DNA from: an uncultured Candidatus Berkelbacteria bacterium
Lineage (GTDB): Bacteria; Patescibacteriota; UBA1384; CAJBMM01
DNA length: 64,000 nucleotides
Assembly (NCBI GenBank): GCA_903954185.1
Contig: CAJBMM010000005.1
Span: forward strand, 1,768 to 65,767
Direction of reading: 5' to 3'
Made by a program: the position numbers and the translations under genes. Every line of letters begins with the position of its first letter. Within the stretch, counting starts at the first letter, position 1. Below, one piece after another: positions 19,326 to 21,269 of the stretch. Below the pieces are notes generated by a model that was not told where the DNA came from, ran no database searches, and saw nothing but the letters and a program-made list of their open reading frames with translations.

Positions 19326-19756
19326 CAACGCAGTTTCCACCACTTTTCACTTTTCACTTCAAACTTTTCACTACACAAAAAAGCCGCTATAGTCCTGCTA
19401 GTTCGGTAGTGTATGTTCTTAATTAAAATTACATACTAACTAGCAGGGCCACAACGACCTAAAATAAATATAACAGAACAAACGGCATAATGCATGGAGC
19501 TTGGAGCTTGGAAAATGGTATATGATGTTTGGAACATATACGAACCAATTTACAATCGCCTCACACCCCCTGAGGCGATTATAGAAAAATCCTCTTCCAA
19601 AAACGATACACGTTGCGCGATGCACGATACACGATTATTCCGATCTACGAAATCTATTCGCCTTTAGCGGATAAACTTCGGAATCGGGGACAGATTAAGC
19701 ATTGCTCACCTGTCCCGTGGTAGTTTTTCTAGCGATACTACCCAAACGCTTTCCGA

Positions 19757-20398
19757 CTAAGGGGCCTGGGCGATCTTCCTCACCCAATCAAGCTTGGCCT
19801 CCAGCTCCTCCACGTCGCGCCCCTCGTTCCAGCGGGCGATCTCGAAGGCGCGGCGAACCGTGATCGGTTCGCCAACATCGAACAAACGCTCCAGTGTCCG
19901 GTCACCCGGATAGGAGCTGGAAGAAAGGACGATATTCACCCGCCGCCGAGGCCGAAGCCCCAAGGCGTACAGGTGACGCCGACGAACGTCGGTCGTTATA
20001 GCGTACGCTACACAACCGTCATCGTTGCAGTCCGACGACGCGGCGACAAGTGTGTTACCTGGTCGCCGCACTTCACACTCGGTACAGCCAATGTAGTGCC
20101 GAAGCACCAATCGTCCGGTGCCGGTTTGGTGCTCGTAGCACCGATTGTCCGTCGCGCTCACGACCGGGGCGCAAATGCCCCAACCGCACGCACCGGCCGT
20201 AATCGGGCGGTCGTACTCGTCGACCGCCGTTCCACTACATACGTACGCGTTGAGACGGGAGGTCGCCGCTCCCAGCGAGCGGCAGCCCTTGACTGTCGAC
20301 TCTACCGTCTTCCACGACATACTGCCCCACGTGTGGGACAGCCCTCGTGCGTCTTTCCATGCACGTCGGACGGCACTCTTGACATCTACGGCTCTCAT
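19757..20398 (-). CDS. hypothetical Cys-rich protein encoded in a ~62% GC island (foreign origin likely)
   Basis: ORF lies entirely within the GC-rich segment 19745..20525. The C-terminal ~60 codons use GC3-rich codons (GAG, CTG, GCC, ATC, CGC), atypical for this genome. No family recognised. Spurious ORFs are frequent in GC-rich DNA, so confidence is low. Confidence 0.3.
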   Translation of the reverse strand: MRAVDVKSAVRRAWKDARGLSHTWGSMSWKTVESTVKGCRSLGAATSRLNAYVCSGTAVDEYDRPITAGACGWGICAPVVSATDNRCYEHQTGTGRLVLRHYIGCTECEVRRPGNTLVAASSDCNDDGCVAYAITTDVRRRHLYALGLRPRRRVNIVLSSSSYPGDRTLERLFDVGEPITVRRAFEIARWNEGRDVEELEAKLDWVRKIAQAP

Positions 20399-21269
20399 AT
20401 CACCCCTCCCAGGGTCTGCCTCCGCCGCTGTGGCGGGGCAAAGTCGTGGTGCGCGGGCGTTTAAGCCACATACGCACCGGAATGTCAGACATCCCCTTCG
20501 GGGATTGATCGAGCTCTAGGCCCGTACATGGCACAAGGCATGTAACATGTAGCTTGAAACATGAAACATGTTGCTTGTAGCATATACGGACTTACTCTTT
20601 TTAATTTATTATGTAGATTCCTGTTTTCGCAGGAATGACAAACGGTGTAACCAGAATGACCAAAGATAAGATTGCTTCGCAAAGCTCGCAATGACAATTG
20701 GAATAACAAGTAGATTGCTTCGTTGCACTCGCAATGACGATGCTTCGCTCGCAATGACATATAATAGAAGTTCCACAATTTTGGACTTTAGACTTTAGAA
20801 TTTGCATTAAGATCTATCCACCCAAGGGTGCAAGTTTCCCTGCACCCAAGGATGGTTTAAAATCTATTTAAGAATCTAGGAATGCTCTATAATGTATGGA
20901 TTCCCGTTTTCACGGGAATGACAGAAGTAGAGCGATCAGATTCTATTTATATTATTAAAGTACAGCTTTTGGACTATCTGCTTTGAGGCGTTGTTTGGTC
21001 CGCGGCATGTAGCTTGCTTAGCAAGCGATGCACCAGCATAATAATCAACTCGGTATATATGTCATTTTAGCGTACTTGCCACTTTGGTCTAAATTGGCCA
21101 AGGCAGTAAGATACAAAAAATGACTCGTCCGTAGCGTGCCCTTGTTATATATACGAATATATATACTTGGGCTGTATGCTACCGACATACTTAGACAAGT
21201 CTTGTTGATTATTAGGTTGTGTGGTGCTGTCACATTCGCGATTGGTTTTTCGCCGTTCTTGCGTGGAAT

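What the first reader, a model, noticed from the sequence alone, without database searches (positions are those of the whole stretch)
19745..20525. ~62% GC island in a ~35% GC genome, flanked by motifs shared with two other GC-rich islands
The segment 19745..20525 is strikingly GC-rich relative to its surroundings. It encodes a 213-aa Cys-rich ORF on the minus strand whose C-terminal codons are GC3-biased. Within ~100 bp of its edges lie ttcgcctttagcggat (19657) on one side and gcgggcgtttaagcca (20455) on the other. The same two motif types flank the GC-rich island at 39.1 kb (gcgttaagcca at 39091; cgctttagcgaat at 39663), and gcgcttaagc sits at the left edge of the 63.4 kb island. That makes three unrelated GC-rich cargo ORFs, each bounded by variants of an imperfect inverted repeat (GCGYTTAAGC / CGCYTTAGCG). 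This points to a small IR-bounded mobile or integrative element family carrying horizontally acquired genes. If this organism is a CPR epibiont, that could include genes from a high-GC partner such as an actinobacterial host. The island lies ~750 bp from an IS30-family element.
Basis: partly seen in the sequence, partly recalled or inferred. Interest (0 to 1): 0.7.

Follow-up and report, generated by a model that had tools for sequence, protein, structure and literature searches.

The report
Strain-variable GC-rich orphan gene cassette

Summary
The GC island is real: 19761-20539 is about 62% GC against 38.9% for the window, and the ORF's GC and GC3 lie 10 and 14 SD above 46 host-like ORFs. It is not an assembly chimera.

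Contig ends in several independent assemblies delimit a discrete segment, 19457-20552 (1096 bp). The two island-only contigs equal that segment plus 2k (k=141 and k=55). This implies a strain-variable cassette.

It carries a 213-aa ORF on the minus strand. Support for coding:
- a Shine-Dalgarno site before the ATG;
- codon periodicity (p about 0.001);
- one remote homologue, and no family, fold or Rfam match.

Its RNA is far more structured than shuffles (z -5.8; synonymous-codon shuffle z -4.8, the lowest of 49 ORFs).

The proposed flank motifs are hairpin loops that occur at chance density, and the three islands share no sequence. No terminal repeats, target duplication, attC site, integrase or high-GC-organism homologue was found.

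The cassette lies in a 5.9-kb segment beside a tRNA cluster that a syntenic relative lacks. That segment also holds an IS30 and a Fic-like gene.

A second, unrelated, non-coding, equally GC-rich and structured island abuts another IS30 copy. This keeps an RNA-element reading alive.

The parts
19457..20552 (.). Segment X: the discrete strain-variable cassette (1096 bp) that contains the GC island
   Evidence: L005 (MEGAHIT k141) covers 19316-20693, which is X+2x141. L006 (k55-type assembly) covers 19402-20607, which is X+2x55. L003 starts at 19402. A flank contig in ERZ1426830 ends at 19456. L020, L021 and L023 start at 20553.
19761..20539 (.). GC-rich core, about 62% GC
   Evidence: Maximal-scoring GC segment and 100-nt profile.
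19757..20398 (-). 213-aa orphan ORF (pI 9.0, 9 Cys including CxxC at 105-108 and Cx4C at 124-129)
   Evidence: ORF list. Periodicity chi2 p=0.0012 and GC-range p=0.0025. One remote homologue, P0006, with aligned start codons and synonymous differences inside the conserved GWGI motif. No Pfam, NCBIfam, PHROG, PADLOC or PDB hit.
20403..20411 (-). Shine-Dalgarno-like GGGAGGGG, 5-7 nt before the ATG at 20398
   Evidence: Read from the sequence. Neighbouring host genes also have AAGGAG sites.
20415..20510 (-). GC-rich leader with three hairpins (about 20415-20442, 20448-20478, 20490-20507). An anti-SD stretch (UCCCC) can pair with the SD instead.
   Evidence: Fold of 20380-20620(-), z=-5.8 with 200 shuffles. 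The 200-nt window 20401-20600(-) has z=-7.25, the lowest in the window.
20521..20592 (-). Long imperfect hairpin whose apex lies at the right junction of X (20552|20553). The last 30 nt or so of X are roughly 79% complementary to the first flank bases.
   Evidence: searches (structure; I4), plus junction coordinates.
19636..19716 (-). Two hairpins in the 3' untranslated part.
   Evidence: Fold of 19540-19780(-), z=-4.6.
19556..19582 (-). Terminator-like hairpin (AAUCGCCUCA..UGAGGCGAUU) followed by a U-rich tail on the minus strand
   Evidence: It was not picked up by the strict terminator scan, so it is inferred.
19385..19456 (.). Flank hairpin (arms 19385-19403 / 19438-19456) whose right arm ends exactly at the left junction of X
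   Evidence: (I8), plus junction coordinates.
19250..19328 (+). Copy of the dispersed repeat GTCATTCCTGCG..CAGGAATC-TAYATAATAAAT (long-loop variant). It is not an element end.
   Evidence: A near-identical long-loop copy lies at 29667-29737.
20604..20641 (-). Copy of the same dispersed repeat, facing the ORF. Its TACATAAT box lies 56 nt upstream of X and is a possible outside promoter.
   Evidence: The promoter role is inferred and was not found by the consensus scan.
21262..22375 (+). IS30-family insertion sequence (1114 bp, 351-aa transposase 21312-22367, 2-bp duplication TG), multi-copy in the population
   Evidence: NCBIfam transpos_IS30, 2e-62. The IS-only contigs L026, L027 and L031, and other flanks seen in L022, L024, L029 and L030.
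18554..24400 (.). Lineage-specific accessory segment beside tRNA-Thr(tgt). It holds a coiled-coil ORF (18784-19203), X, repeat clusters, the IS30 and a Fic-like/MerR gene.
   Evidence: It has no counterpart in the syntenic relative L016, where the holB-like gene lies 58 bp from tRNA-Thr.
22960..23889 (+). Fic-like domain fused to a MerR HTH (matches candidate defence family PDC-S04)
   Evidence: Pfam MerR_1, 5e-14. PADLOC PDC-S04, 6e-18.
39138..39656 (-). Island 2 ORF (172 aa, 51% GC): an orphan, fixed and unrelated to island 1
63521..63931 (-). Island 3 ORF (136 aa, or about 100 aa from the first Met; 50% GC): an orphan, unrelated to island 1, with a canonical terminator hairpin at 63430-63452

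Best explanation
Window 19457-20552 is a 1096-bp cassette of foreign base composition. Some members of this bacterial population carry it and others do not. It lies in a flexible, lineage-specific segment next to a tRNA cluster.

The cassette holds one real protein-coding orphan gene on the minus strand (213 aa). The protein has an N-terminal three-helix domain, a Cys-rich middle that may bind zinc, and a helical C-terminus. The gene is preceded by a 154-nt GC-rich multi-hairpin leader and followed by a 300-nt tail with hairpins and a terminator-like stem.

I infer that the cassette arrived by horizontal transfer, most likely from a mobile-element or virus-like gene pool of moderate to high GC. 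I infer that it entered by illegitimate or flank-mediated recombination at hairpin-rich intergenic DNA, not by its own transposition. It has no promoter of its own that I can see, so it is probably read from the flanking repeat's TACATAAT box.

The leader can hide the ribosome-binding site. Together with the excess structure of the whole mRNA, this would limit or condition translation. That step is inferred.

Shown: the composition, the boundaries, the variability signature, the coding signals, the excess structure, and the absence from a relative. Inferred: the donor, the insertion mechanism, expression and protein function.
For: Composition:
- The ORF is an outlier at z=10.4 (GC) and z=14.4 (GC3) against 46 host-like ORFs.

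Boundaries and variability:
- Island-only contigs equal X+2k for two different k values. Flank contigs stop at 19456 and start at 20553 in several samples, while other samples read straight through.
- The island ORF sits on contigs under 2 kb in 9 of 18 index blocks. The island-2 ORF does so in 0 of 18.

Coding signals:
- SD plus ATG.
- Position-specific composition p=0.0012 and GC periodicity p=0.0025. The stop-free run of 252 codons has p=0.0145 against dinucleotide shuffles.
- P0006 is a homologue at E=3.8e-4 across 1.84 billion proteins. The pairwise E-value is 2e-12 with 34% identity over 94 aa. The start codons align and both have SD sites. The conserved GWGI motif differs only at third codon positions.
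- AF2 gives pLDDT 62-88 for residues 1-67 only.

Context:
- The syntenic relative L016 lacks 18554-24400.
- The segment also holds an active multi-copy IS30 and a Fic-like candidate defence gene.

Not a chimera:
- Identical junction-spanning sequence appears in nine or more contigs from several samples and assemblers.
Against: - No contig of the alternative (cassette-free or replaced) haplotype was recovered. Variability rests on the contig-end signature.
- The protein has a single, short, remote homologue, and IMG called only its last 60 codons.
- The stop-free run is only modestly longer than in shuffles (p=0.0145).
- The RNA is far more structured than expected for a coding sequence. The homologue's locus is not.
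- A second island of the same GC content and structure is clearly non-coding. This suggests RNA or DNA structure, not the protein, could be the selected feature.
- No donor lineage was identified.
Confidence: 0.55

Rival explanations
1. X is primarily a large structured RNA element of about 0.8-1.05 kb, transcribed from the minus strand. The 213-codon frame is secondary or fortuitous. X and the unrelated island X2 (L029 2831-3670) would belong to a set of lineage-specific, GC-rich, highly folded RNA genes or RNA-based mobile cassettes.
For: - Fold z=-5.8 (minus strand) and -4.9 (plus strand) for the island.
- The leader window has z=-7.25 against a background of -0.4+-1.4.
- The synonymous-codon shuffle gives z=-4.8 to -4.9, the lowest of 49 ORFs.
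- Perfect hairpins of 7 bp or more are enriched (3 vs 0.43 expected).
- X2 has the same GC content (62-63%) and z=-5.1/-7.2, yet no ORF and no periodicity.
- GC-rich islands in AT-rich genomes are a recognised signature of structured RNAs (PMC6429828).
- There is almost no protein homology, and IMG calls only 60 aa.
Against: - No Rfam family matches even at E<=10.
- Codon periodicity, the SD plus ATG, and the P0006 match with third-position differences all point to translation.
- No homologous sequences are available, so there is no covariation evidence.
- About a third of long GC-rich 'intergenic' regions in the GC-IGR study turned out to be unannotated protein genes (PMC6429828).
- X and X2 share no sequence.
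Confidence: 0.22
2. X and X2 are scraps of DNA from a GC-rich organism, for example the host of an epibiotic small-genome bacterium. They would have been taken up and fixed by illegitimate recombination, with no function of their own.
For: - GC near 62% in both islands.
- The sequences are mutually unrelated.
- There are no terminal repeats or duplications.
- X is variable in the population.
- X2 is non-coding.
- The relatives found come from small-cell groundwater fractions and a 1.04-Mb contig, which is consistent with a CPR-like lifestyle.
Against: - Random pieces of a high-GC genome should mostly hit known proteins. None was found in 5.8 or 1.84 billion proteins, in plasmids or in phages.
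- The X ORF is intact and fills the cassette, with an SD site.
- The extreme folding z-scores are not expected of random genomic fragments.
- The only homologue lies on a 52% GC contig of small orphan ORFs.
Confidence: 0.1
3. One reading: a family of small mobile or integrative elements bounded by variants of GCGYTTAAGC / CGCYTTAGCG, each carrying a GC-rich cargo gene.
For: - Exact consensus hits slightly exceed expectation (2 vs 0.25 and 1 vs 0.12).
- Island 1 is a discrete variable segment.
Against: - One-mismatch counts equal chance.
- Two of the five quoted sites need an indel to fit.
- The motifs are not at the true cassette ends (19457 and 20552). They are hairpin apices 200 and 95 nt inside.
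- The islands are unrelated.
- Island 2 is fixed.
- There is no transposase or integrase.
Confidence: 0.03
4. Assembly chimera or contaminant read-through.
For: Sharp GC change, and many short contigs.
Against: The same junction-spanning sequence, 99.9-100% identical, was recovered by MEGAHIT, a k55-type assembler and Logan from several samples. These include 24-kb and 66-kb contigs.
Confidence: 0.01

Closest known systems
Strain-specific ORFan genes in flexible genomic islets (including phage 'moron'-like single-gene insertions)
   Same: - A single gene with its own leader and terminator.
- Atypical composition and no detectable family.
- Presence/absence variation among close strains.
- A location in a rearranged accessory stretch with tRNA genes, an IS and a defence-like gene.
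   Different: - The GC excess is unusually large (+24 points).
- The mRNA is exceptionally structured.
- No prophage context, and no recognisable recombination site.
Structured non-coding RNAs found as long GC-rich intergenic regions in AT-rich genomes (GC-IGR approach, PMC6429828; large RNAs such as GOLLD, ROOL and OLE, from my own knowledge)
   Same: - A GC-rich island in an AT-rich genome.
- Size of 0.8-1 kb.
- A strong folding signal.
- Proximity to tRNA genes and mobile DNA.
   Different: - No Rfam match.
- X carries a periodic, SD-led ORF with a protein homologue.
- No relatives are available to test covariation.
IS110/IS1111-type elements (structured non-coding leader encoding a guide 'bridge' RNA, no terminal repeats, no or minimal duplication, insertion beside hairpins; from my own knowledge)
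   Same: - About 1.1 kb, with no terminal inverted repeats or target duplication.
- A highly structured leader of about 150 nt directly upstream of the single ORF.
- Junctions at flank hairpins.
   Different: - The ORF is 213 aa with no DEDD or Transposase_20 domain.
- X is single-copy by the assembly signature.
- No evidence of movement between sites.
Integron gene cassettes
   Same: A promoterless single orphan ORF of foreign composition, with a structured region 3' of the ORF.
   Different: - No attC-like R''/R' core pair.
- No integrase and no cassette array.
- The junction sequences do not fit G|TTRRRY.

Membership tests
IR-bounded transposable element (IS/MITE-like family, as proposed) | Terminal inverted repeats specific to the element ends | tested here: not met
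   - The true ends (19457 and 20552) share no inverted repeat.
- The 23-nt IR 19306-19328 / 20601-20623 lies outside X and belongs to a dispersed repeat with eight or more copies.
IR-bounded transposable element (IS/MITE-like family, as proposed) | Target-site duplication | tested here: not met
   At most 1 nt is shared at the two junctions (..CCACAACG|ACCTAAAA.. and ..ACATGTAG|CTTGAAAC..).
IR-bounded transposable element (IS/MITE-like family, as proposed) | Several related copies | tested here: not met
   - The three window islands and X2 share no sequence.
- Contig starts shift with k, which is the signature of a bubble and not of a repeat.
IR-bounded transposable element (IS/MITE-like family, as proposed) | Transposase or integrase, either in the element or acting in trans with matching ends | tested here: not met
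   - The ORF has no family hit.
- The nearby IS30 has its own ends at 21262 and 22375.
Integron cassette | attC site with complementary R''(RYYYAAC)/R'(GTTRRRY) boxes 3' of the ORF | tested here: not met
   The regex scan found no such pair near islands 1 or 3, and only a 4/7-complementary pair near island 2. No dedicated attC model was available.
tRNA-linked integrative island | Tyrosine or serine integrase, plus a direct repeat of the tRNA 3' end at the far border | tested here: not met
   - No integrase among the ORFs of 18.5-24.4 kb.
- No tRNA-derived direct repeat.
- The segment lies on the 5' side of tRNA-Thr.
Known structured RNA families (Rfam 15: group I/II introns, GOLLD, ROOL, OLE, HEARO, riboswitches and others) | Covariance-model match | tested here: not met
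   No hit at gathering threshold in the window. Only noise at E of 1-8 in 19300-20900. Nothing for X2.
IS110/IS1111-like element | DEDD (RuvC-like) transposase with a Transposase_20 domain | tested here: not met
   No Pfam or NCBIfam hit at E<=1 or E<=0.1. The AF2 model is too poor to test the fold.
IS110/IS1111-like element | No terminal repeats or duplication, and a structured non-coding leader upstream of the ORF | tested here: met
   Junction sequences. Leader z=-5.8 and -7.25. These features are not specific to the family.
Horizontally acquired ORFan in a flexible genomic islet | Atypical base composition and codon usage | tested here: met
   GC z=10.4 and GC3 z=14.4 against 46 host-like ORFs.
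Horizontally acquired ORFan in a flexible genomic islet | Absent from relatives or variable among strains | tested here: met
   - Absent from the syntenic relative L016.
- X+2k contigs and flank-contig ends in several samples.
- The alternative allele itself was not seen.
Horizontally acquired ORFan in a flexible genomic islet | Evidence that the ORF is a real gene | tested here: met
   SD plus ATG, periodicity p about 0.001-0.003, and one remote homologue with an aligned start and synonymous differences in a conserved motif. The strength is moderate.
Horizontally acquired ORFan in a flexible genomic islet | Identifiable donor lineage | tested here: not met
   No homologue from any high-GC organism, and none in phage, plasmid or viral collections.

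The most novel reading that the evidence does not exclude
X and X2 may represent an undescribed kind of GC-rich, hyper-structured cassette of about 1 kb in a small-genome (CPR-like) bacterium. Such elements would be RNA-centred, or structured in single-stranded form. They would enter hairpin-rich intergenic DNA without terminal repeats or duplications, vary between strains, and sit at or near IS30 ends. The X-encoded Cys-rich protein and its folded leader would form their own RNA-guided or RNA-binding insertion or maintenance machinery.
Probability: 0.1. Interest if true: 0.75.

Novelty: new member of a known kind. Interest (0 to 1): 0.4.

Why it matters
If the main reading holds, this is a cleanly delimited case of recent single-gene acquisition in a reduced-genome, probably episymbiotic bacterium. 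The breakpoints are exact and the gene family is essentially unknown. That is useful for studying how such genomes gain genes, but it is not surprising in kind.

Two observations are odd:
- The transcript is extremely over-structured. It is the most extreme of 49 ORFs even after synonymous-codon shuffling.
- A second, unrelated, non-coding island exists with the same GC content and structure, exactly at the end of another IS30 copy.

If these reflect function, they would point to unrecognised structured RNA elements, or to a structure-dependent insertion or targeting process.

Tried and rejected
Searches on the 213-aa ORF that gave nothing:
- Pfam, NCBIfam, PHROGs, PADLOC and PDB sequence searches.
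- The word-indexed 5.8-billion-protein search, with the single sequence and with the two-sequence profile.
- The 1.84-billion-protein HMMER search gave one true hit. The other hits were repeat-protein artefacts, which I rejected after reading them.

Structure prediction:
- AF2 models of the island 1 and island 2 ORFs were too poor to use (pLDDT 45.6 and 40.2).
- The Foldseek PDB hits were all non-significant. The afdb50 library was unavailable.

Collection searches that gave nothing:
- tblastn and blastn against phages and plasmids.
- Viral-contig scans with the protein profile, with the homologue's neighbours and with exact X 22-24-mers.
- The homologue's contig, L010, has only orphan ORFs.

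Other dead ends:
- The genome-contig scan with the flanking kinase found only a 34% archaeal hit, so the organism could not be named.
- A literature search for the sample accessions found nothing.
- There are no informative SNPs inside the island among the contigs.

Considered and rejected: integron cassette, tRNA-integrated island, group I/II intron and known large RNAs, shared flanks among the islands, and the 23-nt IR as element ends.
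Full report
**Observation**

The window averages 38.9% GC. A maximal GC-rich segment spans 19761-20539, with 100-nt windows at 0.58-0.68. On the minus strand the ORF 19757-20398 encodes 213 aa with 9 cysteines.

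Its GC1/2/3 values are .617/.547/.710, and .676/.465/.775 in the last third. Forty-six host-like ORFs have GC .379+-.024 and GC3 .304+-.028. The ORF therefore lies 10.4 and 14.4 SD out. The ORFs of the 39.1-kb and 63.4-kb islands (about 50% GC) lie 5-8 SD out.

The quoted motif strings are present within 0-2 nt of the stated positions. An IS30-family element is confirmed and its ends are 21262-22375.

**The flank-motif claim fails**

- Exact matches number 2 and 1, against 0.25 and 0.12 expected.
- With one mismatch the counts are 8 vs 8.75 and 8 vs 5.5 expected.
- At island 1 both motifs are apical parts of local hairpins. They lie about 200 nt and 95 nt inside the real segment ends.
- The three islands share only 13-nt chance words, and their proteins are unrelated.
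- The one solid inverted repeat around island 1 (19306-19328 / 20601-20623) consists of two copies of a dispersed intergenic repeat, GTCATTCCTGCG-loop-CAGGAATC-TAYATAATAAAT. That repeat has eight or more copies in the window, including an adjacent back-to-back pair at 24183-24257.
- No attC-like core pair, tRNA-derived direct repeat, integrase or transposase is associated with the island.

**Not a chimera, but a discrete variable segment**

The exact protein is encoded on 15 contigs. All nine with DNA match the window at 99.9-100% and cross both GC edges. They come from MEGAHIT (k141 names), a scaffold-type assembler and Logan, and from several samples.

The contig ends are informative:
- L005 covers 19316-20693 (1378 bp) and L006 covers 19402-20607 (1206 bp). 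These equal a common core, 19457-20552 (1096 bp), plus 2x141 and 2x55 bases.
- L003 also starts at 19402.
- A 20.7-kb flank contig in another sample ends at 19456 (from the gene offset).
- Three contigs from three samples start at 20553.

Because the island contig's start moves with k, the core is a haplotype-specific path between shared flanks. It is not a multi-copy repeat. Other samples read straight through (L001, and the 23-kb, 22.6-kb and 66-kb contigs).

As a control, the island-2 ORF occurs only on contigs of 10 kb or more (0 of 18 blocks below 10 kb). The island-1 ORF is on contigs under 2 kb in 9 of 18 blocks.

I did not recover the alternative allele, so 'variable' is an inference from the assembly signature.

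The junctions are ..CCACAACG|ACCTAAAATAAA.. and ..CATGTAACATGTAG|CTTGAAACATG... They show no duplication and no terminal repeat. The left junction is the last base of a flank hairpin arm (19438-19456). The right junction sits at the apex of a long imperfect hairpin, 20521-20592.

**Context**

A metagenome scan found a syntenic relative, L016. It is 20.5 kb of a 1.04-Mb contig at 47% GC, and its flanking kinase is 54% identical. The order tRNA-Pro ... tRNA-Thr-Tyr-Thr, kinase, dCMP deaminase, tRNA-Trp is conserved.

In L016 a holB-like gene lies 58 bp from tRNA-Thr(tgt). The window's 18554-24400 has no counterpart there. That stretch holds a coiled-coil ORF, X, repeat clusters, the IS30 and a Fic-like/MerR gene that matches the PADLOC candidate family PDC-S04 at 6e-18. 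Neighbouring blocks are inverted.

The IS30 is multi-copy, with other flanks in L022, L024, L029, L030 and one further contig.

The organism could not be named. Relatives from small-cell groundwater fractions and the 1-Mb contig fit a CPR-like bacterium, but that is an inference.

**Is the ORF a gene?**

Evidence for:
- A GGGAGGGG site lies 5-7 nt before the ATG.
- Position-specific base composition is significant (chi2 p=0.0012), as is the GC-periodicity range (p=0.0025).
- The stop-free run of 252 codons compares with 148+-36 in dinucleotide shuffles (p=0.0145).
- An exhaustive HMMER search of 1.84 billion representatives gave one credible hit, P0006. It is 115 aa, with E=3.8e-4 and a pairwise E of 2e-12 at 34% identity over residues 6-99.
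- Both proteins start at the aligned Met behind an SD site. In the DNA alignment the conserved HTWG and GWGI motifs differ only at third codon positions.
- P0006 lies on a 1.9-kb, 52% GC contig of small orphan ORFs.

Evidence against, or neutral:
- No family, fold or structure match exists.
- IMG called only the last 60 codons.
- AF2 is confident only for a three-helix N-terminal domain.

I rate coding at roughly 75-80%.

**Excess RNA structure**

- The island folds with z=-5.8 (minus strand) and -4.9 (plus strand) against dinucleotide shuffles.
- 200-nt windows across the whole window have mean -0.4 and SD 1.4. The leader window 20401-20600(-) is the minimum at -7.25.
- Shuffling synonymous codons, which keeps the protein and the codon usage, still gives z=-4.9 and -4.8. 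That is the lowest of 49 ORFs (background -0.43+-1.11). Islands 3 and 2 give -2.7 to -3.9 and -1.8 to -2.4.
- The homologue's locus is not structured (z=-0.4).
- The 154-nt leader forms three GC-rich hairpins. In the minimum-energy fold, a UCCCC stretch pairs with the SD.

**A second island**

The left flank of another IS30 copy is an island of about 845 bp at 62-63% GC, here called X2. It lies at L029 2831-3670 and is also seen in L022. It sits between an AT-rich host-like gene and the IS, with a 2-bp duplication.

X2 has no ORF above 126 codons and no periodicity in any frame (p about 0.8). It has no Rfam, Pfam or plasmid match and no similarity to X. It nevertheless folds at z=-5.1/-7.2. 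L022 starts 55 nt before the GC rise, which is the same junction signature as for X. Two more IS30 flanks are GC-elevated (49% and 51-57%).

This pattern is unexplained. IS30-family preference for palindromic targets (from my own knowledge) is one possibility.

**Conclusion**

The GC island is real and foreign in composition. It is best read as a strain-variable single-gene cassette (19457-20552) in a flexible islet. It encodes an orphan protein from an unusually structured transcript (confidence 0.55).

A structured-RNA reading remains a serious rival (0.22), because of X2 and the folding statistics. Captured junk DNA (0.10), the proposed IR-bounded family (0.03) and a chimera (0.01) are less likely.

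By kind this is a new member of a known class, horizontally acquired ORFans in genomic islets. The folding anomaly and the IS30 association are worth a follow-up.

Noticed in passing
L029:2831-3670 (also L022:56-895), outside the window: A second GC-rich island (62-63% GC, about 845 bp) directly abuts another copy of the same IS30. It is non-coding (no periodicity, no long ORF), has no database match, and folds at z=-5.1/-7.2. Like X read on its minus strand, it begins 5'-CTAC and has a hairpin across the junction.
   Followed up: partly
window 21262-22375; L022, L024, L029, L030: The IS30 element (1114 bp, 2-bp duplications TG and GA) is multi-copy. In every flank that could be read, it lies at or near GC-elevated DNA (49-63% GC).
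   Followed up: partly
window 19250-19328, 20604-20641, 20886-20924, 22719-22770, 24183-24257, 29667-29737, 59289-59318, 12830-12859, 16718-16745: A dispersed hairpin repeat, GTCATTCCTGCG-loop-CAGGAATC followed by TAYATAATAAAT (a -10-like box). It has a long-loop variant at two sites and a back-to-back palindromic pair at 24183-24257. Six of about eleven copies lie in the 5.9-kb accessory segment.
   Followed up: partly
window 20669-20763 and 22786-22817: Four copies of AGATTGCTTCG-N-CTCGCAATGACA hairpin units. A 28-nt stretch matches Helicobacter canis prophage records BK070053 and BK070055 exactly (three places each).
   Followed up: no
window 10001-10400 (+): A strongly structured region (z=-3.2 and -6.8) immediately upstream of the Nramp transporter gene (10509-11891). 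It has no Rfam match at E<=1, so it is a candidate unclassified leader or riboswitch.
   Followed up: partly
window 17801-18000; 28801-29000 (+); 60801-61000 (+): Other intergenic windows with fold z of -5 to -6.4. The first, between the kinase gene and tRNA-Thr, has no Rfam match.
   Followed up: partly
window 22542-22634 and 20810-20850: Nested palindromes built on GGGTGCAACCCT / AGGGTTG..CAACCCT (35-nt arms, 89% complementary). They sit in structured windows with z=-4.7 and -5.2.
   Followed up: no
window 19497-19512, 22480-22500, 22905-22935, 19336-19376: Short stutter-like word repeats in intergenic DNA (ggagcttggagcttgg, gaacagtgaacagtgaacag, cataacctcataacct, cttttcacttttcactt).
   Followed up: no
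window 24490-27578 vs L016 5721-9051: Two adjacent gene blocks (holB-like/TPR, and the M50 peptidase) are inverted relative to the syntenic relative. The tRNA-Pro to tRNA-Thr interval is therefore rearrangement-prone.
   Followed up: partly
window 18885-18950: A 21-nt tandem repeat inside the coiled-coil ORF (KRFEQVD units). Several assemblies break here (contig ends at 18930 and 18976).
   Followed up: no
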